NCBI GenBank assembly: GCA_965261545.1
Contig: CBDHDF010000011.1
Span: 928,001-992,000 of the forward strand
Source of the DNA: Bdellovibrionales bacterium
GTDB lineage: Bacteria > Bdellovibrionota > Bdellovibrionia > Bdellovibrionales > UBA1609
DNA: 64,000 nucleotides
Direction of reading: 5' to 3'
The translations under genes were made by a program, and so were the position numbers. Shown in pieces: positions 7,068 through 28,360 of this stretch; the first letter of the stretch is position 1; each line of letters opens with the position of its first letter. Below the pieces are notes generated by a model. The model did no database searches and was not told the origin of the DNA. It saw nothing but the letters and a program-made list of their open reading frames with translations.

Positions 7068-9213
7068 GTTCCTGTCCAGGGAAGAAAGTTAAGTAGTTTT
7101 AAGTATTTACATGCCTTCCCTTTAGATTTTATGCTTTAAAATGGAGTCCATCAAACATAATCCGTGTAAATTCAGTTACTTACATAAAACGGAAAAATAA
7201 AATAAGTTCCCCCCCCTCTCTTGACGAACCTTTCACAGCCCCTCCCTTTCAGTGACTTATGTGGCTATCAACTGGTTACTTGATATGAGAGGAAGAGTTG
7301 GATCAACCTGTGTTTCCACCGTGGTGATTTCAAACCTCCTTCAGGGAAATAACATTACGTTGCGCATCAACTTCAAAAAATACTTGACGTGTTTTTTCAG
7401 AGAAATAATTTTTGATATTTTATTCTTCATTTATTTTTTATGTAGGTTTTAGGAGGCGTGGGAACCTCTCTATGAGGTAGAATTCTTATCCATGTTCTCC
7501 GAGAACCTCTCTGATTTTTTTCTTCTTAAAAGACATCCTTGCTCACTTTTTTCCCTCAAAAAAACGTATGTTAATATAAAAATTAAAGAGAAACTTTCAC
7601 CAAAGGGGGGACTATGCGCCATTTGAAGAAGACACAGTTGGGACTCTTTTCCCAATATCCTAACCACCAACTCAGTACAGAATTGCAGCAAATTAATAAC
7701 ATCATTGATCGCCATCCAGAGTTTGCCCATATGGTTCATGAAGACCTTGTTAAAGAAAAGAAAGATTCTGGTGATATTGGTATGACATCGGAGCAAGTTC
7801 TCAAGGTGGCTATTCTTAAATCCATAAGAGGTCTTTCCTATCGTGCGTTAGCCTTTAATCTTGTCGATTCAGTATCCACCAGAGCTTTTCTGGGCCTTGA
7901 ATTGGAAGAAAATTACGCTCACTCCACCTTACAGGACTTGATTGTTCAAATAAGTGAAGAAACTTGGGGAATTATTAGCGCCTCTTTAGTTTCAGATGCA
8001 AGAGATCAAAAGATTGAGCCGTGTAAGAAAATGAGATTGGACAGTACAGTGACGAAATCAAATATTCATCATCCAACGGATGCATCGCTTTTATATGACT
8101 GCATAAGAGTTACAGAAAGAGAATTTAAAAAAGTTCGTAAAAATGTCATGAAAGATTTTTGGCGACTTATTTCAAGAGAAGATCTTAAGAGAGCAAAAAC
8201 CTTGCTTTACAAAATTAATAATTCCAAAAATGATGCGGAAAGACTACCTTGCTATAAGGAGCTTTTAAAAATCGCTACCAAATTGAACAAAGGATTACCT
8301 GATACCATCAGAAAGATAAAAAAAGAACAAAAATGTGTGAAGATGAATGCTTTGAAAAAGAGTCTAAAACAGTTAGAAAATGTTGCCTTCTACCTGGAAA
8401 AAATCATCTTTCAAACTCAAAAAAGAGTTATTGAGGGGAAAAAAGTATCTTCTGAAAAAAAGGTCCTATCCATCTTTGAACCGCATACAGACATTATTGT
8501 AAAGGGGCAAAGAGAAGTCGAGTTTGGGCATAAAATCTTTTTGACCTCAGGGCAAAGCAACATGATTTTAGATTGTCAGATCCCTGATGGCAACCCCGCA
8601 GACTCTGATATGTTTTTAAAAGTTATGAATTCAGTGACACAAACCTATGGGGCTTGCCCTGTAAAAGTAAGTGCAGATGGTGGGTTTGCTTCAAAAGAAA
8701 ATCTTGAAGAGGCCAAAGAGATGGGGGCTAAAGATGTTTGCTTCCCAGAAAAAAAAAGGAATGAAAATATTAAAGATGGTTAAAAGTGCTTGGGTCTTTA
8801 AAAATCTTCTCAATTGGAGAGCCGGAATAGAGGCTGTTATTTCATTCCTTAAGAGATGTTTTGGTATGAGAGTTGCTTACTGGAAAGGGCATGATGGTTT
8901 TAAGAGGTATGTAAAGAATGCCGTTTGTGCCTATAATTTTGTTGTCTTGGCAAGACATGAATTATCAACTGTCACCTAAATTTATCCATTAGGAATAACA
9001 GCAATGGACCAGGTCGAAGGTGCTAAAATCTTCCAAAGGTAGGGGTGCGTCTTCAAATCGAAAAAACTAGGGCGCAAGTCGCTTAAAGACCTTTTTCCCC
9101 TTAATCTGTAGAGTTTGTGTGGCAAATCTCCAACTCTCACTCCCCCATTGAGGCATTGGGAGGCTCAATGGGGAGTGTCAGAGAACAAAAAATGGGCCTT
9201 TCTGGACAGAAAC
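7068..9213 (+). mobile_element. ISNCY-type IS, copy 3 (2146 bp)
   Basis: Same IRs as copy 2. Target duplication TACGTA at 7062-7067 and 9214-9219. Confidence 0.93.
7614..8979 (+). pseudogene. ISNCY transposase, frameshifted
   Basis: An extra A in the poly-A run near 8750 splits the gene into 389-aa and 102-aa ORFs. Confidence 0.85.
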
Positions 9214-9335
9214 TACGTATGTATCTATCTCATGCTTATGACGTTTTATCGGGTGTGACAAAGAATCTTTGCTATTCTCCCGCTCTGAACGAAATCGCCA
9301 ATGCTATTCAAATGATAGGTAGTTTTGAGAGTAAT
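9214..9335 (+). pseudogene. IS4 transposase fragment 2
   Basis: RMYLSHAYDVLSG...GSFESN continues fragment 1 in frame (ETHFLR-MYLS). Confidence 0.8.
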
Positions 9336-9465
9336 TGTACAATTGCGCGTATTGCCCGCACTGGTTGCACCCATTACCCTCACTTTCCCTATTTCAATGC
9401 GTCATTGATGATTTTCCTTCCCATTTCTGGGGAAAATTTTAGTTAATTTGTAATCCTATTTCTTC

Positions 9466-10218
9466 CTATTTTAGGGAAAAGTCCTGGTCAAGTTTTGTTC
9501 CCTGGATTTTTCGATAACTCTCTCCTTTAAGTAAAATTTTTATGGCGGTATGCTTCAAACGGTCGATGATAGTATCTGCCAGCACCTCATCATCAATAAT
9601 TTCTGACCAATGCGTTATTGGCAGTTGAGTGGTAATAACGGTGGACCTATCGGAACGAAACTTTAAAATATCGCAGAAGTCTGTGGATTCACTTTGGGAG
9701 AACTTCCTTAATCCAAAGTCATCAAAAATTAACACTTGGGGGCGGCCCAGACGACGCAAGTAGTTCAAATACCTTCCTGAGTGCCTTTCCAGGGCCAAGG
9801 TTTCTAGAAATATGTTGATGTCTATAAACAGTGTGGAGATTCTGGATTGACAACACTGGTGTCCCAGGCTCTGGGCCAAGAAGGTTTTACCCACCCCCGT
9901 TGGCCCTTCGACAATGATAGACCTTTGCTCCTTAACCCATGATAAAGTTTGAAGCCTATCCACCTCTCTTTTACTAATAGACCTTTTGGCATGGTGGTCA
10001 AATGCCTCACCTCTGACCTTGTGAGGCAGCTTTGAGGTCTTGAGAAGTCTTTGGCTGAATTGGATTTTCCGAGCCTCCACTTCTGCAAATAACAGCTCGT
10101 TCAATAGATCCAATGCTTGAGTCTTGTGGCTTGTGTTATCCAGCGCCACTTCAAGGCTGTCTAACATTCCATAGAGCTTCAACTCATGCATGTGGTTTTT
10201 GATTTGTACTTCATCCAT
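9466..10218 (-). CDS. istB: IS21 helper ATPase IstB
   Basis: GPTGVGKTFLA, LIFDDFG, ITTQLP..W, IIDRL. Confidence 0.93.
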   Translation of the reverse strand: MDEVQIKNHMHELKLYGMLDSLEVALDNTSHKTQALDLLNELLFAEVEARKIQFSQRLLKTSKLPHKVRGEAFDHHAKRSISKREVDRLQTLSWVKEQRSIIVEGPTGVGKTFLAQSLGHQCCQSRISTLFIDINIFLETLALERHSGRYLNYLRRLGRPQVLIFDDFGLRKFSQSESTDFCDILKFRSDRSTVITTQLPITHWSEIIDDEVLADTIIDRLKHTAIKILLKGESYRKIQGTKLDQDFSLK

Positions 10219-11734
10219 CTGGCACCTCCTTGGGGCTTTGGTTATTTGGATTTTCGTTATGTCGCAAATAAGGGTTGCCTTGTTTACGATCTATTTTCTC
10301 GTTCACCTTTTTTATTTTTTGCCCTTTATAGAAATGGAGTTGTTGCTGAAAATATCTAACCCTCCTTTTCTCCCACTGCTTGCAGTCCTCAAGGGCTTTG
10401 ATAATGAGAGGAAGGGACTTTTCCTTGCCCTCTTTCTGGATTTCTTTGTGACAGGAGCTTACAAAGCCCATAGCTCTTCTGAGATTTTCAATGGTCCCAC
10501 CCTGAAAAAGCTCCTCAATGAAGTTTTCAAGCTCTTTACAAATCATACTTGCTTGAATAAGAATGTTCTGGGGAGTGGCCTCCTTGTAGGCGCGACTGGG
10601 CTCCGGGAGGTGTTCGTTTTTGGTGATGTACTCTCCGAGTTTACCTTTGGTCCTCTTGTGGCGAGCGAGGAGCTGTTTTTGAAAGTAAATCTCCACACTC
10701 TCCACTCCAATTTTTACATCTACATACTCCCCTCGGTGCTGAAACGGAGCCGAGTAGAAGTTGGATTCAACGCTCACATGACAGTCTTGGTGGAGTTTTT
10801 TCTTCTCCCAACGTCCCCACCGGTAGGGAAAAGAAGGCAAGGGTTTTAAAGTTTTTACCTCTCGTTGAAATTTTTCATTGCGAGAGACCTTAAATCTTGT
10901 GTGAGGGCGAGCATTTATCTTCTCGCACACCTCCCTTAAAGCCTTATTAATTTGATCCAGACTGGTGAAGGTCTCTCGTCTGTACATAAACCTGAGGGCC
11001 CTTGTAACGAGCTTCACGGCATTCTCAGTAAGGCTTTTATCCTGGGGACGACGAACTCGAGCGGGAACAGCCACCGTGTCATAGTGTTCCAAAAGCTCTT
11101 GGTAGGATTTATTCAACTCTGGATCATACAAATGGGGTGTGTTCACTCCAGTCTTTAAATTATCAGGAACAACCACTCTCGGAACCCCACCGTAATATTC
11201 AAACATCAGAACGTGAGCGTGAAGAAAATCTTCACTAGATTCGCTCAAAGAGCCATAAGCAAAAATACGCTGAGAGAAACATAGATTTGAGCAAAATATA
11301 TGGGCCTTATGAATATTAAGGTCTTCATCGATCCACTCTGGCTGAAATCCTGCGTAATCAACCTCAACTTGGTGGCCTGGCTGAAAATCACGCAAGGTAA
11401 TAATCCTTTTGCCAGCTTTTGGAAATTGCTTATGAAACTCCCTCGTAAACTGGGGGTAGCTAATGACCTTCAGAAATTTTTCCTCCCAAACGTCACTTAA
11501 ACAATGCCTATCCTCAATCTCCTTCTCAATAATCTTCCAATCTATACCGTAAGACCAAGGGGGAATTTCTCTTTGGGTCTTCCAATCCTTGGGGTCTGTT
11601 AAAAGACCACGTCTTATCTTTCTAAGAGTCTTGGTGCAGCATTTCATGCGGCGACTGATTTCTCGGTCGGGAATATTTGCCTTTATTAATGATTTTATTT
11701 TTGTGTAACGCTCATGATCCATCTTTGTTCTCAT
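10211..11734 (-). CDS. istA: IS21 transposase IstA
   Basis: VEVDYAG, VVPDNLK, RRPQDKSLTEN. Start placed at 11734 after AAGGAGG (the ORF track starts at 11779). Confidence 0.92.
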   Translation of the reverse strand: MRTKMDHERYTKIKSLIKANIPDREISRRMKCCTKTLRKIRRGLLTDPKDWKTQREIPPWSYGIDWKIIEKEIEDRHCLSDVWEEKFLKVISYPQFTREFHKQFPKAGKRIITLRDFQPGHQVEVDYAGFQPEWIDEDLNIHKAHIFCSNLCFSQRIFAYGSLSESSEDFLHAHVLMFEYYGGVPRVVVPDNLKTGVNTPHLYDPELNKSYQELLEHYDTVAVPARVRRPQDKSLTENAVKLVTRALRFMYRRETFTSLDQINKALREVCEKINARPHTRFKVSRNEKFQREVKTLKPLPSFPYRWGRWEKKKLHQDCHVSVESNFYSAPFQHRGEYVDVKIGVESVEIYFQKQLLARHKRTKGKLGEYITKNEHLPEPSRAYKEATPQNILIQASMICKELENFIEELFQGGTIENLRRAMGFVSSCHKEIQKEGKEKSLPLIIKALEDCKQWEKRRVRYFQQQLHFYKGQKIKKVNEKIDRKQGNPYLRHNENPNNQSPKEVPDG

Positions 11735-11832
11735 TTCGACCTCCTTGGTTAAAGATTGGAGGTCTTTATAGAACATCAATGACGCTATGCTAAGGGGAAT
11801 CAGTCATGCCAATCAGTGCGGGCAATGCCATG

Positions 11833-13742
11833 GTTCGCCGGGCGAACTGAGATAAGATAGGGGGTTAGAGTCCCCCGAGAGGAAGGTCAACCGACCACTT
11901 CTCTCCCCAAGCCGTGCGCTGTCGGCCGTGAGGCCGAAGCGATGTATCGGTAGGGGTGTGTGTGGGCCAAATAATTGAGCGTCGAAAATGCCGAACTCTG
12001 GAGTGCGGAGGCTGTCATGGTAGCCGAACGCAACATACCCACCAGCGCTATGGTGAGTTGGTGGGTGACTCCACGGCGTCGTAGAAACTGGCACATACAT
12101 GAATCTTATCCCGGGACCTCGGGAGGTCTTTATTTAACCCCGTCATGTGCGACGGGCGACATGGGAAAGGAGGTAACCGTAACCCATGAACGAAATAAAG
12201 AAATCGGATCCACTCATAGTAGCGATGAAGAGGACGAACAAAGGGCCTACAAGCCCAGCGGAGTCCTTGGAGCGAAGGGGTGGAACTGAAGGGAACTCAA
12301 TCCGTCAAAGCATCTGCCGAACACAGAGTTGGGAAAAGGTGTCACAGGCGACGGAGCGAGTCCGTATAGCAGCAAAGAGAAAGGATGGTAAGCTCACTTG
12401 CTTGCTTCACCATGTATCTGTGGAAGCCCTCCACTTGGCTTACCTCTATTTGAATAGGGGAGCCAGTGCGGGAGTGGACCATTTAACATGGAAGGAGTAT
12501 GGCGAGAACCTCGTGCAAAACCTGTTCGATTTACATCGTCGGGTCCACACGGGTGCTTACAAAGGGCAACCTGTCTTGCGGGTAGAAATACCCAAGTCAG
12601 ACGGGGGCACAAGACCCTTGGGTGTCCTGGCCTTGGAGGACAAGATTGTCCAGAAGGCCGTTGTAGACAGCATCCTCTCTCCCATCTACGAGGAACATTT
12701 CCTCGGTTATAGCTACGGATTCCGTCCAGGGCGTGGAGCGCATAATGCGTTGGATGCTCTGGCTTACGGAATAGAGCGTAGAAAGATCAGCTACATATTG
12801 GATGCGGATATAAAATCCTACTTCGATAGCGTGGATAGAAAGACTCTAATTCGCTTTCTAAAACACCTCATCGGAGATGAGAGACTCATTCGTCTCTTTG
12901 AAAAGTGGCTCAAGTGCGGAGTGCTATCTCAAGGCGTCTTAGAAGACACAGGGAGAGGGACCGTTCAAGGTTCAAATATTTCCCCTATCTTCGCCAACAT
13001 ATATTTACATTATGTGTTGGATTTATGGATGCAGAAATGGCGCAAGGACCATGCCACAGGGGACATGATATTTGTTCGCTACGCCGATGACTTTGTCGTA
13101 GGCTTTCAATACAAGGGGGAAGCTGAACGCTTCCTCAATGATCTGAAGCGCAGGCTTAAGGAGTTTTCTCTAGAAATACATCCGGGGAAAACTCGCCTCA
13201 TAGAGTTCGGTCGATTTGCAAATGCAAATTGCCGCCGACGAGGTCTTGGTCACTCCGAGACTTTTGATTTCTTAGGATTCACTCACTTTTGTGTGCGCAC
13301 GAGGAAAGGAGGCTTTAGGATAGGGCGTAAACCCATATCCAAGAGAGTCTGCCGGACCTTACAGCACCTGAAGCTGAGTCTGAGAAAACGAGTCTACACG
13401 AGGGACCTAGCGGAATGTGCAAAGTGGTTGGGTTTGGTCATCAAAGGCTGGCTCAATTATTTTGCGGTTCCAGGAAGTACGGTGTACCTACGAAAATTTA
13501 TTTGCGCAATCAGGAGTGCTTGGATGAAAGCCATCCGACGACGCTCACAGCGTGGACGGAGATTCTCGTGGAAGAGGTTGGATAGAATGATTCGTCTATT
13601 CTGGCCTCGTATATCCATACGCCACCCGTGGCCAACAGATAGGTTCGCTATGCGGTACCACCTGAAGTAGGAGCCGGATGCTTTAACGAGCACGTCCGGA
13701 TCTGTGCGGGGGGTGCGTGGCAACACGCATTCCTACCGTAAC
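11833..13742 (+). mobile_element. Group II intron, copy 1 (1910 nt)
   Basis: 5' end GTTCGCC. Domain V GAGCCGGATGCTTTAACGAGCACGTCCGGATCT. Domain VI ends CTACCGTAAC. Candidate EBS1 CATGGT (12016-12021) pairs with exon GCCATG. Confidence 0.92.
12186..13670 (+). CDS. ltrA: Group II intron reverse transcriptase/maturase, no endonuclease domain seen
   Basis: IPKSDGGTRPLG, SYGFRPGR, DADIKSYFD, GTVQG, RYADDF, FDFLGF, GWLNYF. The true start may be downstream (about 12279). Confidence 0.95.
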   Translation: MNEIKKSDPLIVAMKRTNKGPTSPAESLERRGGTEGNSIRQSICRTQSWEKVSQATERVRIAAKRKDGKLTCLLHHVSVEALHLAYLYLNRGASAGVDHLTWKEYGENLVQNLFDLHRRVHTGAYKGQPVLRVEIPKSDGGTRPLGVLALEDKIVQKAVVDSILSPIYEEHFLGYSYGFRPGRGAHNALDALAYGIERRKISYILDADIKSYFDSVDRKTLIRFLKHLIGDERLIRLFEKWLKCGVLSQGVLEDTGRGTVQGSNISPIFANIYLHYVLDLWMQKWRKDHATGDMIFVRYADDFVVGFQYKGEAERFLNDLKRRLKEFSLEIHPGKTRLIEFGRFANANCRRRGLGHSETFDFLGFTHFCVRTRKGGFRIGRKPISKRVCRTLQHLKLSLRKRVYTRDLAECAKWLGLVIKGWLNYFAVPGSTVYLRKFICAIRSAWMKAIRRRSQRGRRFSWKRLDRMIRLFWPRISIRHPWPTDRFAMRYHLK

Positions 13743-13880
13743 CAACTGGTGCGGGCAATGCCATGCAACTGGTGCGGGCAATGCCATGCAACTGGTGAGG
13801 GTAATGCCATGCAACTGGTGAGGGTAATGCCATGCAACTGGTGAGGGTAATGTCATGCAATCGGTGAGGGCAATGCCATG
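13743..13880 (+). repeat. Six tandem 23-bp repeats, consensus CAACTGGTG(C/A)GGG(C/T)AATGCCATG (IS21 end repeats)
   Basis: Units start at 13743, 13766, 13789, 13812, 13835 and 13858. A seventh unit lies at 11810-11832. Related inverted copies occur at the other IS21 end (about 9345-9385). Confidence 0.95.
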
Positions 13881-15790
13881 GTTCGCCGGGCGAACTGAGA
13901 TAAGATAGGGGGTTAGAGTCCCCCGAGAGGAAGGTCAACCGACCACTTCTCTCCCCAAGCCGTGCGCTGTCGGCCGTGAGGCCGAAGCGATGTATCGGTA
14001 GGGGTGTGTGTGGGCCAAATAATTGAGCGTCGAAAATGCCGAACTCTGGAGTGCGGAGGCTGTCATGGTAGCCGAACGCAACATACCCACCAGCGCTATG
14101 GTGAGTTGGTGGGTGACTCCACGGCGTCGTAGAAACTGGCACATACATGAATCTTATCCCGGGACCTCGGGAGGTCTTTATTTAACCCCGTCATGTGCGA
14201 CGGGCGACATGGGAAAGGAGGTAACCGTAACCCATGAACGAAATAAAGAAATCGGATCCACTCATAGTAGCGATGAAGAGGACGAACAAAGGGCCTACAA
14301 GCCCAGCGGAGTCCTTGGAGCGAAGGGGTGGAACTGAAGGGAACTCAATCCGTCAAAGCATCTGCCGAACACAGAGTTGGGAAAAGGTGTCACAGGCGAC
14401 GGAGCGAGTCCGTATAGCAGCAAAGAGAAAGGATGGTAAGCTCACTTGCTTGCTTCACCATGTATCTGTGGAAGCCCTCCACTTGGCTTACCTCTATTTG
14501 AATAGGGGAGCCAGTGCGGGAGTGGACCATTTAACATGGAAGGAGTATGGCGAGAACCTCGTGCAAAACCTGTTCGATTTACATCGTCGGGTCCACACGG
14601 GTGCTTACAAAGGGCAACCTGTCTTGCGGGTAGAAATACCCAAGTCAGACGGGGGCACAAGACCCTTGGGTGTCCTGGCCTTGGAGGACAAGATTGTCCA
14701 GAAGGCCGTTGTAGACAGCATCCTCTCTCCCATCTACGAGGAACATTTCCTCGGTTATAGCTACGGATTCCGTCCAGGGCGTGGAGCGCATAATGCGTTG
14801 GATGCTCTGGCTTACGGAATAGAGCGTAGAAAGATCAGCTACATATTGGATGCGGATATAAAATCCTACTTCGATAGCGTGGATAGAAAGACTCTAATTC
14901 GCTTTCTAAAACACCTCATCGGAGATGAGAGACTCATTCGTCTCTTTGAAAAGTGGCTCAAGTGCGGAGTGCTATCTCAAGGCGTCTTAGAAGACACAGG
15001 GAGAGGGACCGTTCAAGGTTCAAATATTTCCCCTATCTTCGCCAACATATATTTACATTATGTGTTGGATTTATGGATGCAGAAATGGCGCAAGGACCAT
15101 GCCACAGGGGACATGATATTTGTTCGCTACGCCGATGACTTTGTCGTAGGCTTTCAATACAAGGGGGAAGCTGAACGCTTCCTCAATGATCTGAAGCGCA
15201 GGCTTAAGGAGTTTTCTCTAGAAATACATCCGGGGAAAACTCGCCTCATAGAGTTCGGTCGATTTGCAAATGCAAATTGCCGCCGACGAGGTCTTGGTCA
15301 CTCCGAGACTTTTGATTTCTTAGGATTCACTCACTTTTGTGTGCGCACGAGGAAAGGAGGCTTTAGGATAGGGCGTAAACCCATATCCAAGAGAGTCTGC
15401 CGGACCTTACAGCACCTGAAGCTGAGTCTGAGAAAACGAGTCTACACGAGGGACCTAGCGGAATGTGCAAAGTGGTTGGGTTTGGTCATCAAAGGCTGGC
15501 TCAATTATTTTGCGGTTCCAGGAAGTACGGTGTACCTACGAAAATTTATTTGCGCAATCAGGAGTGCTTGGATGAAAGCCATCCGACGACGCTCACAGCG
15601 TGGACGGAGATTCTCGTGGAAGAGGTTGGATAGAATGATTCGTCTATTCTGGCCTCGTATATCCATACGCCACCCGTGGCCAACAGATAGGTTCGCTATG
15701 CGGTACCACCTGAAGTAGGAGCCGGATGCTTTAACGAGCACGTCCGGATCTGTGCGGGGGGTGCGTGGCAACACGCATTCCTACCGTAAC
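13881..15790 (+). mobile_element. Group II intron, copy 2 (1910 nt)
   Basis: Appears identical to copy 1 at an offset of 2048, with the same boundaries. Confidence 0.92.
14234..15718 (+). CDS. ltrA: Group II intron reverse transcriptase/maturase
   Basis: Same translation as 12186-13670. Confidence 0.95.
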   Translation: MNEIKKSDPLIVAMKRTNKGPTSPAESLERRGGTEGNSIRQSICRTQSWEKVSQATERVRIAAKRKDGKLTCLLHHVSVEALHLAYLYLNRGASAGVDHLTWKEYGENLVQNLFDLHRRVHTGAYKGQPVLRVEIPKSDGGTRPLGVLALEDKIVQKAVVDSILSPIYEEHFLGYSYGFRPGRGAHNALDALAYGIERRKISYILDADIKSYFDSVDRKTLIRFLKHLIGDERLIRLFEKWLKCGVLSQGVLEDTGRGTVQGSNISPIFANIYLHYVLDLWMQKWRKDHATGDMIFVRYADDFVVGFQYKGEAERFLNDLKRRLKEFSLEIHPGKTRLIEFGRFANANCRRRGLGHSETFDFLGFTHFCVRTRKGGFRIGRKPISKRVCRTLQHLKLSLRKRVYTRDLAECAKWLGLVIKGWLNYFAVPGSTVYLRKFICAIRSAWMKAIRRRSQRGRRFSWKRLDRMIRLFWPRISIRHPWPTDRFAMRYHLK

Positions 15791-15800
15791 CAATTTTACA

Positions 15801-16502
15801 AGTAATAGCATAACTCTCTACGATAGGCTTTATTTATCTACAGAGATTATTAAGGCCCATGCTCAAGCCAGTAACTTCTTTATTGCGCGTTGTAAGCGAG
15901 GCTCTACTTTTATCCCCATTGTAAATTTATTTAATGGCCCAGGTTGGTATTCACGAATGGTTATTGAGGGGGTGGTCATTCATCTCTATAAGTATAAAAA
16001 CCCAAAGACTGGGGAGTTCTCTGTTTTGGCCACTAATCTTCCGCATGGCTCCTTGGACAAGAAGGATATGGTTGCTCTTTACTCTCGTCGTTGGGAAATA
16101 GAAACGACATTTCGTGATTTTACATCGACAATGAAAATGGAGCAGTGGCACTCAACAAGCCTTAATGGAATATTGCAAGAGCTGTATTCTTATTTTTGGC
16201 TCTTCAATTATACAAAGATTCAAATGAGCATAAATGAGGATGAAGACAGTGTGAATCAGTTGGTAAAAAATGACTACAAAAAACCTAACTTTAAACTGAT
16301 TCTTGATTTCATAATGGATAGCATCCCTCTTTTTGTTGCGGGGCTCTATCAGAAATTTAGGAAGCAGATAAAGTTGCTGATGAAGATTTCAATGGAGAAG
16401 AGGAGGCACTTCAAAAGAAGCTATGAAAGGTCTATCAAAAGGGCTGGGAGTTCTTTTAAAAGAAATAGCTTAACGCAGAGGCAGAGGGGTGTGGTGGCTT
16501 AA
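15801..16502 (+). pseudogene. IS4 transposase fragment 3 (C-terminal)
   Basis: SITLYDRLY, LATNL and YSRRWEIETTFRD (IS4 YREK-type motif). Stop lies within the right IR. Confidence 0.88.
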
Positions 16503-16639: not shown

Positions 16640-16781
16640 AACACCTCCTGATGCAGAGTATTAAACTCATGGGGAGGTTATGACAAGACTTAGTCAAGGG
16701 AATGTAATAATTCTTTAGGGATGGTCAAAGAAAAATAAAAAATAAAGGCGAATTCTAGTCAGAATAAAGTATCGTATAACA

Positions 16782-17315
16782 CCCCTCTGTGCAGGAAGCT
16801 GTATAGCCAAGTTCATCACAAGCAATAAGATCAAAACGGTCTAATTTCTTAAAAAGAGCATTCAATGAGAGTTCTTTCTTGCTTTCACGCATTGTTTCAA
16901 TAAGTTCATGAGTGGTGACCCATAAACATCGATAGCCTTGTTCACAGAGTGAACGAACTAGGGACATGGCCAAATGACTTTTCCCCATTCCAAAGCTTCC
17001 GTAAAACACAACATTACAGGCTTTTCTGACCCACTCTCCCTCTGCCATCCAATTAATTTGCTGAGCTGTCACTCCCGTTCTTTTCTGGAAGTTATAAGTT
17101 TGGAGTGATTTAAGTTGAGGAAGCTTGGCCCCCTTAAGCAATCTTTTCACTCTCTGGGAATGCTTGTCAGCAAGCTCATTTTGAACGAGTATACCTAAAT
17201 ACTGTTCATACGTCTTTTTTGTTTTTTCGGCAACTCTAGCCGTTGCAACATATTCATCCGCCATCGCTGGAAGTCGGAGTTTTTTAAGAGAACCTATAAG
17301 TTCTTCGTGATTCAT
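16782..17315 (-). pseudogene. istB: IstB, C-terminally truncated
   Basis: LKKLRLP, GSFGMGKSHLA, ACDELGY. Cut at 16782 by the three-gene transposon end. Confidence 0.85.
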
Positions 17316-18777
17316 TAAGAACCTCCTATGTTTGGAACAAGACTGTCATATTGAGACAATCTAGGTTGAAGTGGTTTTTGTTGGTCATTCAAATTAATTT
17401 TGGTGGGATTGCCTAAGAGCAAATCTTTTATGGATTTAAAGTCGAAAATCTCACGACTTTCTAATTGAAGCTCCATGGCTGTAGATAAGTCCTGCCAACT
17501 CACATGCTGAATCAAGTTGATAACTCTTAAATATTCATGCTCGGCACGGCTTGAATCTTGTTGCTTGAGGTATTGATAAAAATTTTCAAACACATTTGTT
17601 GGAAAAAGAATGGATCGGTGAGCCCATCTTACCATGGCTTGCGGCTTACGAACTAAAGAAGGAAGGATATGTTCAAGAAGAAGACTATGCTCCCCATCAG
17701 GTTTTCTTTGATGGCGAGCGACAATTTCTTGCTTCCCTCCTGCACGATAGATCGTGACATGATAGGGACCCTGTACGGTTTTACAGGGAGATTGGATCAC
17801 CTCATCAGGTATGGAATATGTGGTTTTACCTATTCTCAAAGTCCCATAACCATTACTTTGACAAATATTCACCTTACAGAGAATATCTTCATCTCGTGGA
17901 GGCAAAGGCTTAAGAACTTTGGCCTCCTCCTCAAAGCGAGATTTGGTGGAGTCACTCTGATGCTGATCCATATAAGACTCTAAAAACTGATTCAAATGAT
18001 CCCAGTCTTTAAAAACAATTCCTTTGTTTCTAACAATATTTTTTATCCGAGAACTGAAGGTTCGAATATCACGCTCCACATCTCCCTTGTCAGAGCCCTT
18101 CCCTGCGCGGCAGGGAAGAACCTTAAATCCATAGTATTGGATGGCTCGATCAAAAGATTGGGTGTAAATTCGCTGATTTCCTTTAAGAACTTTCTTCACA
18201 CAGGGAGATAAATTATCAATACGGATGTTCGCACTCATCCCACCTATCTTTTCAAAAAAAGCATGCACCCCATCGATGAAACACTCATAGACAAGAAAGG
18301 GGTAGGCACGAACCCAACAGGTGCCACTACAAGGCAATGTTCCAAAATGGAGATGAACGGAACACCATCGGCAAATGGTAAAGCAACCTTCTCCTTAAAA
18401 TCAAACTGAGCCTGTTCTCCAGGATCATATCTTTGGCTGAAAAAACGCTCCTTGGGGCGAGAACCAAGAATCTCACAAACTCTTCTCTGAACCGTTCTCT
18501 CACTCCCACGATAACCCTCCTCAACTAATAGCTCATATATTTCACGGGCGGTGTTACTTGGGTTCAACTTCAAAAAGTACTTCACCCGATCCATATATCC
18601 ATTAAGGGGATCTGGGCGAGTTCTTTTGGACCTCGCCTTGTACTTCGGTGGGGTGTTGGACTCACAGTACTTGCGCACCGTCTTACGATTGATCCCTAAT
18701 TCACGAGATATTTCTGTCTTATTTTTACCACTGTGACTCAGGTCACGAATGCGGCCGAAAGTGTATTGACTAATCAT
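17315..18777 (-). pseudogene. istA: IstA, frameshifted near 18360
   Basis: HTH (EISRELGINRKTVRKY), QAQFDF, RIDNL and DKGDVE are split across two frames. RBS GAGGAGG precedes 18777. Confidence 0.85.
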
Positions 18778-18902
18778 AAGATCCTCCTCATTGCTAACCT
18801 TTTGAGTTGCAAAAGGGAGGGACTCTGTGAGCTTAGTATCTATATCAGAAGAAGAGACTTCATTGTCTAGTATTTGAACACTCCCTGAAGATTGGTCACT
18901 TT

Positions 18903-19277
18903 TCATTGGCGACAACCTCCATATTGAAAGTGGGACATTTTAATTGGCGACGGCTTTAAGGGAAGCCTGTCTTTAGAAAGAAATTCCATGAAAATTGAGG
19001 CAAATGTTGGAATCTTGTGGAATTTAAATACTTTAGAAAATGGGCACAGCCTAAACAGGCTTTTCTTGACTATATATTTAACCTCATTGAAATCCAGAAA
19101 CAGTCTACAAATGACAAATATGGAACCTGAATAGGCTGTCATGGAAGGACTCTCCAACACGGAGCCCCTTTCCAGGTCGACAAGAACCCAAAAGGAGTTC
19201 TTATCAGCTCGGAGCCTTTTTATGAGTAATATCAATTGATTATATGCGTCTCGGTTGACAATGCCAAAAATCACCAT
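18903..19277 (-). CDS. Hypothetical passenger protein within the IS21 end
   Basis: 124-aa ORF with RBS GAGGAGG. No motif recognised. Confidence 0.45.
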   Translation of the reverse strand: MVIFGIVNRDAYNQLILLIKRLRADKNSFWVLVDLERGSVLESPSMTAYSGSIFVICRLFLDFNEVKYIVKKSLFRLCPFSKVFKFHKIPTFASIFMEFLSKDRLPLKPSPIKMSHFQYGGCRQ

Positions 19278-19344
19278 AGGTCCTCCTCTGAAAAGTGGCC
19301 ACTTTTCATTGGCGACGGTGGGGCATTTTAATTGTCAGCTAACA

Positions 19345-27493: not shown

Positions 27494-28222
27494 ATTGGGT
27501 AGAAGGGCCGGTTACCCGACCCAACCCCCGTTCCCACCACATCGTGCCCAATTAAGGCAATAGGCAGACGATAACTCCACTCACTCAACTATATCAATAT
27601 CGATCTATTCCCACAGTCTTCATCCCATTCAACTCATGGAAATACCCAGTGAGTGACCCTTGTTCACCTAGGACATCCGCCCATGTGACATCTTGGGATC
27701 CTCACCAGATAGATGAACTACCCTCTTCAGTTTCGTTTCCGTAATGTTGTTGGACTTTGTTAATCCCATTTACGTTTCTCTTCAAAGGTTAGAGTTACCT
27801 AAGCCCCTTCCCTCTACGGTCGTTACTCGCTTCATCGGTACTATGGACTCGCTGACTCCCTCATGTTCATTTCACCATTCTTGCTGTTTAGGCTTGTTTG
27901 GCAATACCCCATCCTAGGGGAACATGAGGGTCTCCCACGCTCACAAATACACCTTCAAAAAAGTGCCATGCTCTCAGACCCCGGCGGCGCCACCCTTGTT
28001 CTCCTCAGTTACAAAAGGGTGATGTTGTCTTCCACTTCTTGAACAGTGTCGACCACCACGGTATAAAATCTTTCGAGGCTCAATCACTTCAACCTTACGG
28101 CCCTTCTTTCTTGCTATCTACGCTTAACTCATATTGTTATGAGCCCAAGACTCGCTGCGGAGTGCGCTGAGGCACTTCTCCGTGTGGACTTTCACCACCG
28201 ATGTATTTACCTCGTGGCGCAC
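27494..28222 (-). mobile_element. Internally deleted group II intron (729 nt) with only a relic of its protein
   Basis: Starts GTGCGCCACGAG. Domain II/III motif GGAGTCAGCGAGTCCCATAGTACCGATGAAGCG. Relic peptides ETKLKRV and YFHELNGMKTVGID. Ends GGTAACCGGCCCTTCTACCCAAT. Confidence 0.82.
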
Positions 28223-28360
28223 TCAAAATTTTTTTCTATTTGTGTATTACAGCATTTATCCATCCAAGTCTTTAATTTTATTAATGAAAAATGAATTCAC
28301 ACTCATGCTAAACTATTCCTACAAAATACTGAGAAATACTTTTTGTTATGGAAAAAGGCA

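What the first reader, a model, noticed from the sequence alone, without database searches (positions are those of the whole stretch)
11810..15800. Group II intron that repeatedly homes into the tandem 23-bp end repeats of an IS21
Seen: both 1910-nt introns sit at the same position of the same repeat, after GGGCAATGCCATG and before CAA. Removing them restores seven in-phase 23-bp units running into the IS21 terminus CAATTTTACA. The intron hairpin GGCTGT-CATGGT-AGCC carries CAUGGU, which pairs with exon GCCAUG as EBS1/IBS1. The flanks of the two copies differ (CAATCAGTGCG vs CAATCGGTGAG upstream; CAACTGG vs CAATTTT downstream), which argues for two independent insertions rather than one duplication. 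Two perfect targets (ending 13765 and 13788) remain empty. Known: IS21 ends carry repeated IstA-binding sites, and group II introns often target IS coding regions. Inference: this retroelement specialises on transposase-binding repeats, gains a multi-site landing array, and could build intron arrays.
Basis: partly seen in the sequence, partly recalled or inferred. Interest (0 to 1): 0.82.

Follow-up and report, generated by a model that had tools for sequence, protein, structure and literature searches.

The report
Intron homing into IS21 end repeats
A self-copying RNA element (a group II intron) has inserted itself several times into the short repeated transposase docking sites at one end of a jumping gene (IS21); it is a clear case of one mobile element living inside another, but introns that target the end repeats of insertion sequences have been described before.

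Summary
Window 9336-15800 is one IS21-family element on the minus strand (istA, istB), flanked by a 6-bp target duplication. Its left end is an array of 23-bp direct repeats. Two 100% identical 1910-nt group II introns (RT/maturase, no endonuclease domain) sit at the same place in unit 1 and in the last unit.

Genome-wide, 8 intron insertions lie in 6 of 13 IS21 left-end arrays, after unit 1, unit 2, unit 5 or the last unit. Seven arrays of 5-10 units are intron-free and show the uninterrupted target. Only 2 insertions are ectopic, and 0 of 16 right ends are hit. EBS1 and EBS2 pair with the unit. A 63%-identical relative, which sits in an IS66 element, has compensating changes in both loops.

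Published work shows that IS21 ends consist of IstA-bound direct repeats spaced 23 bp apart.

RmInt2 of Sinorhizobium meliloti is already known to home into the terminal inverted repeats of ISRm17 (PMC4615759). New here are the IS family, the tandem multi-site target and two introns in one array. Splicing, mobility and the long-read check remain untested.

The scan also noted this same stretch in an overlapping window. It has no note of this arrangement on other DNA.

The parts
9330..9335 (.). Target-site duplication AGTAAT, right side of the IS21
   Evidence: Same hexamer at 15801-15806. Logan contigs join 9329 to 15801 with 6 letters shared.
9336..9379 (-). IS21 right terminal repeat: tip TGTACAATTG within R1, then R2 (two 22-bp units with the ATTRCCC core). 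It lacks the GCCATG that the intron pairs with.
   Evidence: 0 of 16 near-identical right ends in the genome are interrupted.
9466..10218 (-). istB, helper AAA+ ATPase (250 aa)
   Evidence: PF01695 at 187.4 bits. NF038214 at 204.3 bits against a cutoff of 200.
10211..11779 (-). istA, IS21-family DDE transposase (522 aa from the TTG start listed)
   Evidence: NF033546 at 185.3 bits against a cutoff of 160. Pfam rve and Mu-transpos_C_2.
11810..11832 (+). Innermost full 23-bp left-end unit (U1), 5' exon of intron copy 1
11833..13742 (+). Group II intron copy 1 (1910 nt), antisense to istA. Landmarks: EBS2 loop 11985-11997, EBS1 hairpin 12010-12025 (EBS1 12016-12021), D5 13671-13703, D6 13704-13742.
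   Evidence: RF02005 at 155.8 bits against a gathering score of 49. RF00029 at 37.6 bits, below its gathering score of 40, E 2.9e-5. Coordinates.
12186..13670 (+). Intron-encoded protein, 494 aa: RT with YADD (13080-13091) plus maturase X, no endonuclease domain
   Evidence: TIGR04416 at 324.9 bits against a cutoff of 300. RVT_1 at 119.7 bits; GIIM at 21.3 bits, below its cutoff of 23. Protein sequence printed.
13743..13880 (+). Six tandem 23-bp units U2-U7 (IstA-binding-type direct repeats). U2-U6 are unoccupied targets; U7 is the 5' exon of intron copy 2.
   Evidence: TRF period 23, 6.0 copies
13881..15790 (+). Group II intron copy 2 (1910 nt, identical to copy 1; IEP 14234-15718). It splits the terminal repeat L1, 10 bp from the IS21 tip.
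15791..15800 (+). IS21 left tip CAATTTTACA (TGTAAAATTG on the IS strand), 3' exon of intron copy 2
   Evidence: The same tip ends 12 of 13 left ends tokenised; the 13th (C6) is cut short. TSD lies next to it.
15801..15806 (.). Target-site duplication AGTAAT, left side of the IS21

Best explanation
An autonomous bacterial group II intron without an endonuclease domain uses the 23-bp direct repeats of the left terminal region of an IS21-family element as its homing site. The structure is IIB-like: EBS1 and a short EBS2 are present.

How it recognises the site. The excised intron RNA pairs EBS1 (CAUGGU) with GCCAUG at -6..-1. It pairs EBS2 (UGCC) with GGCA or GGUA at -12..-9. It probably pairs EBS3 with the C at +1. 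It reverse-splices between ...GCCATG and CAA... in the middle of a unit and is copied into DNA by its reverse transcriptase. Because there is no endonuclease, priming is presumably by nascent DNA at a replication fork.

Why there are many sites. The unit is repeated 5-10 times per IS21 left end and the IS21 has about 13-16 copies. The intron therefore has dozens of equivalent sites, all in one orientation and antisense to istA. It has used at least three or four different units and can occupy two units of one array.

Consequences for the IS21 (inferred). Insertions in inner units leave the tip-proximal repeats intact. Such copies can probably still transpose and carry the intron along. Insertion in the terminal unit, 10 bp from the tip as in window copy 2, should disable that end.

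Shown: the anatomy, the junctions, the pairings and the distribution. Inferred: IstA binding of these units, the priming mode, the effects on IS21 transposition and present-day activity.
For: 1. Intron identity. RF02005 scores 155.8 bits against a gathering score of 49, twice. The D5/D6 match has E 2.9e-5. The IEP passes TIGR04416 (324.9 against 300) and carries YADD.

2. IS21 identity and limits. IstA and IstB pass the NCBIfam cutoffs. The tips are TG...CA. The right end has two units with the same ATTRCCC core. A 6-bp TSD flanks the window element, and 7 of 9 copies with both ends readable show 6-8-bp direct repeats. Contigs in 3 runs join across the empty site.

3. Exact insertion without a target duplication. 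7 of 13 left-end arrays are intron-free and continuous, with 5, 6, 6, 8, 8, 8 and 10 units.

4. Multiple positions. There are 8 insertions in 6 of 13 arrays (83 units in all): after U1 five times, after U5 once, after the last unit once, and after a U2-type unit that abuts the tip once. The C2 copy shows the same ordered U1-U7 array as the window, with the intron between U5 and U6.

5. Specificity. 8 of 9 5' junctions follow ...AATGCCATG. 11 of 13 3' junctions are followed by a unit or by the IS21 tip. 2 insertions are ectopic. 0 of 16 right ends are hit.

6. Pairing with covariation. The closest relative found has a 63%-identical IEP and two copies, between IS66 Orf2 and the IS66 transposase. 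In the aligned loops it has CAAGUA and UUUU. These pair with its own exon: UAUUUG at -6..-1 and AGAA at -12..-9.

7. The units are IS21-type transposase sites. PMC10122671 states that IS21 terminal repeats consist of direct repeats separated by 23 bp, that two complete repeats are needed for integration, and that IstA is seen bound to them. Four IstA relatives at 37-40% identity also have period-23 arrays of 2.3-4.7 copies upstream of istA.

8. Precedent for the mechanism: RmInt2 and the ISRm17 inverted repeats, with experimental retrohoming.
Against: - No RNA, splicing or mobility data exist for this element.
- The D5/D6 model score (37.6) is below Rfam's gathering score (40).
- All evidence for targeting comes from one genome. 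No closer relative than 63% IEP identity was found in 100 family, 300 order and 400 phylum genomes sampled, and none in two metagenome scans.
- Five of the 8 array insertions are at the same unit, after U1. Four of those five, plus the copy after U5, share an identical 1938-nt serine-recombinase insertion at the same intron position. This fits copying of the composite by IS21 transposition, gene conversion, or trans-mobilisation as well as independent homing.
- EBS2 is only 4 bp.
- The window's tandem pair could not be checked with long reads, because only Logan contigs were available.
- No promoter-like site was found upstream of the intron.
Confidence: 0.85

Rival explanations
1. A single ancestral intron insertion into the IS21 end was followed only by DNA-level events: IS21 transposition with the intron as cargo, unequal crossing-over within the 23-bp array, and gene conversion. 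There was no repeated homing.
For: Five of 8 array insertions are after U1. Five of the 8 (four of them after U1) carry the same 1938-nt secondary insertion at intron nt 716/717. Array length varies from 5 to 10 units, so the array does recombine or slip. SNP 279 C/T is shared across intact and interrupted copies, which points to exchange between copies.
Against: The unit variants give the array an order (U1...U7). The intron lies between U1/U2, between U5/U6 and between U7 and the tip, with the order otherwise undisturbed. Moving an intron between units by crossing-over would need exchanges inside 8 bp or less and would scramble that order. Two insertions lie outside any IS21 (flanks). The window arrangement (U1-I-U2..U7-I-tip) is not a head-to-tail duplication: the 115-nt spacer is not repeated after the second copy.
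Confidence: 0.07
2. The second intron in the window, or the tandem arrangement as a whole, is an assembly artefact of a repeat-rich genome.
For: The copies are letter-perfect. The genome is full of identical repeats. No read-level check across the locus was possible. An earlier unchecked note of this scan raised long-read assembly error for another perfect tandem repeat in this genome.
Against: The two copies have different flanks on both sides (U1 against U7, U2 against the tip). The repeated block is separated by a non-repeated 115-nt spacer. An independent locus has the same kind of arrangement (interrupted intron, one unit, intron, tip, with an intact 8-bp TSD). The U1-intron junction occurs in a Logan contig (X1 record 5, 11803-12550).
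Confidence: 0.04
3. The intron is not merely a parasite of the IS21. It is a retained functional module of it, for example supplying regulation of transposition or an outward transcript.
For: The intron always has one orientation relative to istA. Inner-unit insertions travel with apparently transposition-competent IS21 copies that have their own TSDs.
Against: 7 of 13 left ends lack it. Most carried copies are inactivated by a secondary insertion or by truncation. The fixed orientation is explained by the base pairing alone. No promoter-like site was found.
Confidence: 0.03

Closest known systems
RmInt2 of Sinorhizobium meliloti GR4, which homes into the inverted repeats of ISRm17 (Martinez-Rodriguez et al. 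2014, PMC4615759, passages seen; review PMC5894124)
   Same: An endonuclease-less bacterial group II intron whose natural target is the terminal repeat of an insertion sequence. This gives more than one site per IS copy. It has a short, mismatch-tolerant EBS2/IBS2 (4 bp suffices), and two adjacent intron copies were observed.
   Different: - RmInt2 is class D. The class D C-terminal motif quoted in that paper is absent here.
- ISRm17 is an ISNCY element (PMC10194956), not IS21.
- RmInt2 uses one site in each inverted repeat, in opposite orientations. Here only the left end is used, at a unit repeated 5-10 times in tandem in one orientation.
- RmInt2's double copies are head-to-tail. Here they are separated by array units.
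- RmInt2 mobility was shown experimentally. Here it is inferred.
RmInt1 / ISRm2011-2 and other IS-targeting introns such as E.c.I4 (PMC1802570 seen as search listing and abstract; PMC3522654 passages)
   Same: The intron uses a multi-copy insertion sequence as a safe, mobile homing site. Only part of the available sites is occupied.
   Different: Those introns have one site per IS. For RmInt1 that site is ISRm2011-2, where the review PMC5894124 says that insertion blocks the IS's spread. That the site lies within the transposase gene is recalled, not seen in a call. Here the site is non-coding, repeated and antisense to the transposase gene, so inner insertions need not harm the IS.
The 63%-identical intron in genome G193 (loci L027, L044), and Sr.md.I1 in an IS66 unit (PMC4615759)
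   Same: Same Rfam D1-D4 model (163.2 bits), same IEP architecture and an IS-borne target.
   Different: Its target is the junction between IS66 Orf2 and the IS66 transposase, in sense orientation. Its EBS1 and EBS2 loops are re-written to match.
Group IIC-attC introns that target integron attC recombination sites
   Same: An intron specialised on the recombinase-recognition sites of another mobile system, which occur in arrays.
   Different: IIC introns recognise a DNA hairpin plus a short IBS1 and lack EBS2. Here there is no hairpin in the 5' exon (z-scores 0.64 and -0.94) and an EBS2 is present.

Membership tests
Mobile bacterial group II intron | Ribozyme domains D1-D4 with the family's secondary structure | tested here: met
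   RF02005 at 155.8 bits against a gathering score of 49, full model 1-225, both copies
Mobile bacterial group II intron | Catalytic D5 (AGC triad) and D6 with a bulged branch A at the 3' end | tested here: inconclusive
   RF00029 at 37.6 bits, just under its gathering score of 40, E 2.9e-5, full model 1-77. It ends exactly at the intron's last base. AGC is visible in the sequence.
Mobile bacterial group II intron | Intron-encoded RT/maturase in D4 | tested here: met
   TIGR04416 at 324.9 bits against a cutoff of 300. RVT_1 at 119.7 bits. YADD present. GIIM alone is sub-threshold (21.3 against 23).
Mobile bacterial group II intron | Exact insertion with no target duplication; EBS/IBS complementarity to the flanking exon | tested here: met
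   Intron-free arrays are continuous. EBS1 pairs 6 of 6 and EBS2 4 of 4 positions. Compensating changes occur in a 63% relative.
Mobile bacterial group II intron | Splicing and retromobility | not testable with these tools
   No run on record as RNA was listed. Activity is inferred from 4 identical intact copies.
IS21 family insertion sequence | istA (DDE transposase) followed by istB (AAA+ helper) | tested here: met
   NF033546 at 185.3 against 160; NF038214 at 204.3 against 200
IS21 family insertion sequence | Terminal inverted repeats ending in CA and built of multiple direct repeats spaced 23 bp apart; short target duplication | tested here: met
   Tips and units. Period 23. TSDs of 6-8 bp in 7 of 9 copies. 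The family feature is taken from PMC10122671.
IS21 family insertion sequence | IstA actually binds these units | not testable with these tools
   Inferred by analogy with IS5376/IS21 structures
Class D group II introns (RmInt1/RmInt2 type) | C-terminal IEP motif LX3AX3PXLF[V/A]HW, as quoted in PMC4615759 | tested here: not met
   A regular-expression search of the 494-aa IEP finds no match. The C-terminus reads ...LFWPRISIRHPW....
Class C (IIC) group II introns | Target defined by an upstream DNA hairpin; no EBS2 | tested here: not met
   The 5' exon folds no better than shuffles. An EBS2 loop with covariation is present. The nearest solved IEP is nevertheless a IIC one (7uim, E 3.9e-43). The class is left unassigned.

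The most novel reading that the evidence does not exclude
The IS21 end array and the intron form a three-way balance, not a simple parasitism.

- The array, expanded here to 5-10 IstA-type units against 2-5 in relatives, acts as a buffer or landing pad. Intron insertions in inner units are then harmless, and even dead intron copies are propagated as IS21 cargo.
- Insertions into the terminal unit L1 immobilise the IS. The intron is therefore both passenger and brake of the IS21, and array length would be under selection because of the intron.
- A site-specific serine-recombinase mini-element that sits inside the RT genes of two different intron families would be a fourth tier that disables the intron.
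Probability: 0.15. Interest if true: 0.6.

Novelty: new member of a known kind. Interest (0 to 1): 0.4.

Why it matters
It gives a second, independent natural example of a group II intron that lives on the transposase-recognition repeats of an insertion sequence. It differs from the first example in IS family and probably in intron class.

The target here is a tandem array. One IS end offers up to ten equivalent sites, which allows a clean comparison of insertions that should spare the IS (inner units) with insertions that should kill it (terminal unit).

This makes two questions testable in a simple system. The first is how introns and their carrier transposons affect each other's spread. The second is how many intact IstA repeats an IS21 end needs in vivo. 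The 23-mer and its EBS pairings also define a compact target for retargeting studies.

Tried and rejected
- Comparative search for the same intron elsewhere.
  - A DNA search of 100 sampled genomes of the family found only short weak matches.
  - IEP searches of 300 order and 400 phylum genomes found nothing closer than 63% identity.
  - The one genome-contig scan returned two relatives at 33-35% identity.
  - A metagenome scan with the intron's first 24 nt found nothing.
  - A scan with a degenerate unit pattern found one chance match upstream of an unrelated gene in a GC-rich contig.
  - The cross-species test of specialisation could therefore not be made.
- Plasmid collection. The best IEP relatives are about 50% identical and lie in unrelated places, next to umuDC in Klebsiella plasmids and next to a rep gene in Skermanella. 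Only 2 of 4815 records were inspected.
- Sequencing runs. No listed holder is on record as RNA.
- Logan contigs.
  - No piece spans the locus, so the 2048-bp period could not be confirmed.
  - Run X5, from another organism label and study, has contigs for the IS21 body and for array pieces but none for intron-specific parts. Contigs do not show absence, so this is not used as evidence.
  - Contig word depths of the IS21 body against the intron were 19.2 against 12.1-15.2 in X1 and 43.5 against 26.9-30.1 in X2. They are roughly in line with the assembly's copy numbers, but the tool warns that such depths are not copy numbers, so they are not used.
- Replication-strand bias of insertions. Cumulative GC skew on the five largest contigs is too weak and noisy to place origins.
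- Promoter for the intron. The consensus scan found no site upstream of either copy.
- Intron class. The Rfam family name gives no class; a paper search for it found only Rfam release notes. Class D motif not met, IIC features not met. Class left open.
- Hairpin-type target: rejected.
- Literature. These searches found no report of an intron in IS21 repeats:
  - 'group II intron' + IS21 + 'inverted repeat'
  - 'group II intron' + 'transposase binding' + IS21
  - 'group II intron' + 'insertion sequence' + retrohoming + 'terminal repeats'
  - 'group II introns' + tandem + 'intron array' + 'homing site' + repeat
  - 'group II intron' + inserted + IRL + transposase + homing
  The library holds open-access papers only. 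Supplementary Fig. S1 of PMC4615759, which maps the RmInt2 copies, was not looked at.

Full report
**What is there**

Window 9336-15800 is one IS21-family element on the minus strand.
- istA (10211-11779) and istB (9466-10218) pass the NCBIfam cutoffs for the IS21 transposase and the IstB helper: 185.3 against 160 and 204.3 against 200 (Pfam).
- The element begins with TGTACAATTG at 9336 and ends with CAATTTTACA at 15800.
- It is flanked by the 6-bp direct repeat AGTAAT.
- In Logan contigs of three runs, a contig joins 9329 directly to 15801 with six shared letters. The sequence without the 6471-nt element therefore exists too.
- The element sits inside an IS4-like transposase gene.

**The two introns**

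Two copies of a 1910-nt group II intron lie inside the left end, on the + strand and so antisense to istA. They are at 11833-13742 and 13881-15790 and are 100% identical.
- Each matches Rfam RF02005 over the whole model: 155.8 bits against a gathering score of 49.
- Each ends with a D5/D6 match. This scores 37.6 bits, slightly under the gathering score of 40, with E 2.9e-5.
- Each encodes a 494-aa RT/maturase with YADD and no endonuclease domain. It passes TIGR04416 at 324.9 against 300.

**The target**

The left end is a tandem array of 23-bp units (TRF period 23).

Read from the tip inward, the tip itself is the first ten bases of the terminal unit, TGTAAAATTGCATGGCATTGCCC. The intron site lies between bases 10 and 11 of every unit. 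The right end has two units with the same ATTRCCC core but without GCCATG.

Published work on IS21 states three things (PMC10122671, passages seen):
- The terminal repeats consist of direct repeats (L1/L2, R1/R2) separated by 23 bp.
- Two complete repeats are needed for integration.
- IstA is bound to them in the cryo-EM structure.

Four IstA relatives at 37-40% identity in other genomes of the order also carry period-23 arrays of 2.3 to 4.7 copies upstream of istA. The units are therefore IS21-type transposase sites by architecture. Binding itself is inferred.

**Genome-wide test**

The genome has 11 contigs and 4.3 Mb. I tokenised 13 IS21 left ends, 83 units in all.
- Seven are intron-free and continuous, with 5, 6, 6, 8, 8, 8 and 10 units.
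- Six carry eight intron insertions:
  - after U1 in five elements;
  - after U5 in one;
  - after the last unit in the window element;
  - after a U2-type unit that abuts the tip in the element at C10:1015955, which also has two introns.

The unit variants give the array an order. The C2 element shows the same ordered U1-U7 as the window, with the intron between U5 and U6. These are therefore different insertion events and not rearrangements of one.

Junction counts:
- 8 of 9 5' junctions follow ...AATGCCATG.
- Of 13 3' junctions, 5 are followed by a unit and 3 by CAATTTTACA.
- 3 more are followed by the variant tip CAATTGTACA. These are 3' fragments: two are copies of one locus and one is a 70-nt relic at 86% identity.
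- The remaining 2 are followed by unrelated sequence.

The two ectopic sites are the antisense strand of a secreted-protein gene and a gene that I read as ISL3-like from its translation. That reading is from memory and was not tested.

None of 16 near-identical right ends is interrupted.

**Recognition**

In the Rfam alignment the loop GUCAUGGU (12010-12025) is the D1 hairpin that carries EBS1.
- CAUGGU pairs with GCCAUG at -6..-1.
- The preceding internal loop AAAAUGCCGAACU (11985-11997) offers UGCC, which pairs with GGCA at -12..-9. In three units this is GGUA, with a G-U pair.
- Position +1 is C at all sites.

The closest relative found has a 63%-identical IEP. Its two copies lie between IS66 Orf2 and the IS66 transposase. 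In the same aligned loops it has CAAGUA and UUUU. These pair with its own exon: UAUUUG at -6..-1 and AGAA at -12..-9. This covariation supports both assignments.

The ectopic site keeps 5 of 6 IBS1 pairs and a poor IBS2. The 5' exon has no hairpin, so the target is not of the IIC kind. The class D motif is absent. The class is left open.

**How much is homing and how much is hitch-hiking**

Five of the eight array copies, and one ectopic copy, are interrupted at intron nt 716/717 by the same 1938-nt element. That element encodes a large serine recombinase (Resolvase, Recombinase and Zn_ribbon_recom domains).

Four of the five insertions after U1 are of this interrupted kind. They lie in IS21 copies at different genomic sites. 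Two of those copies are complete and have their own TSDs. The interrupted intron also occurs after U5 and at an ectopic site, where both copies share a 1-nt deletion. SNP 279 C/T cuts across intact and interrupted copies.

These facts fit any mixture of the following, and I cannot separate them:
- IS21 transposition with the intron as cargo;
- gene conversion;
- independent site-specific recombinase insertion;
- trans-mobilisation.

The safe statement is that the intron entered the array at three or four different units at least. Inner insertions do not obviously stop the IS21 from spreading. Insertion inside L1, as in window copy 2, should by the two-repeat rule of PMC10122671 disable that end. 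This last point is inference.

**Artefact?**

The window pair is not a head-to-tail duplication. The flanks differ on both sides, and the 115-nt spacer (U2-U6) is not repeated after the second copy. A second locus has the same kind of pair, and the U1-intron junction is present in a Logan contig. No long reads were available, so this is a strong argument but not proof.

**Comparison and novelty**

Group II introns that use insertion sequences as homing sites are well known (RmInt1/ISRm2011-2; E.c.I4).

Targeting of IS terminal repeats is also published. All RmInt2 copies in S. meliloti GR4 lie in the inverted repeats of ISRm17. The authors note that this doubles the number of sites, and they demonstrate retrohoming and double intron copies (PMC4615759, passages; PMC5894124). 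ISRm17 is an ISNCY element (PMC10194956).

New here are the IS family, an intron that fails the class D motif test, and a tandem, same-orientation, multi-unit target that coincides with the IstA-type repeats. Several units are occupied, and two introns occur in one array in two elements. My five literature searches found no report of an intron in IS21 repeats, within an open-access library.

I rate it a new member of a known kind, with moderate interest.

**Organism**

Not determined here. Earlier unchecked notes of this scan call the genome Bdellovibrionales-like. Nothing seen suggests a listed pathogen.

Noticed in passing
G000 C11:547566-549503 and four identical copies (outside the window); 97% variants at C10:793053-794990, C11:871157-873094, C11:367628-368185, C10:10006-10145 and C7:146916-151828: A 1938-nt mini-element encodes only a 542-aa large serine recombinase. 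It has 15-bp imperfect terminal inverted repeats and a 2-bp overlap at the junction. It sits inside the RT gene of this intron (IEP residue ~121). A 97% variant sits inside the RT gene of a different group II intron family at residue ~267, in four or more places. The two target DNAs resemble each other, which points to a site-specific element that lands in, and inactivates, group II introns.
   Followed up: partly
window 27500-28225 (-): A third, different RF02005 match (125.8 bits at 27969-28192). Only a short, broken reading frame follows it, and a D5/D6-like end lies near 27500. It is probably an ORF-less or decayed intron of the same structural class.
   Followed up: no
window 7614-9329 and 15801-16502: The IS21 is itself inserted in an IS4-like transposase gene (DDE_Tnp_1 halves on both sides). 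The uninterrupted form is present at high contig depth in the runs, so it is a multi-copy element. The nesting is IS4-like > IS21 > two introns.
   Followed up: partly
window 16755-19320 (-): A second IS21-like remnant: a truncated IstB (186 aa) and a 340-aa ORF with no Pfam match. Three copies of a 29-nt repeat at 18885-19316 look like another IS21-type end.
   Followed up: no
G000, 13 IS21 left ends: The number of 23-bp units varies from 5 to 10 between otherwise near-identical IS21 copies. There are two array 'haplotypes' and one unit with a 1-nt deletion. IstA relatives in other genomes have 2.3-4.7 units, so the array is expanded and unstable here.
   Followed up: partly
G000 C10:843330-843399: A 70-nt relic of an intron 3' end (86% identical) is joined to the tip variant CAATTGTACA. 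It lies just after a gene whose C-terminus I read as queC-like (recalled, not tested). This hints that the intron-IS21 tip association is older than the identical copies.
   Followed up: no
G000 C6:252469, C10:1105034, C11:916333: Another insertion element, whose end reads CAATGCCGTTTCC..., truncates three intron copies at two different intron positions.
   Followed up: no
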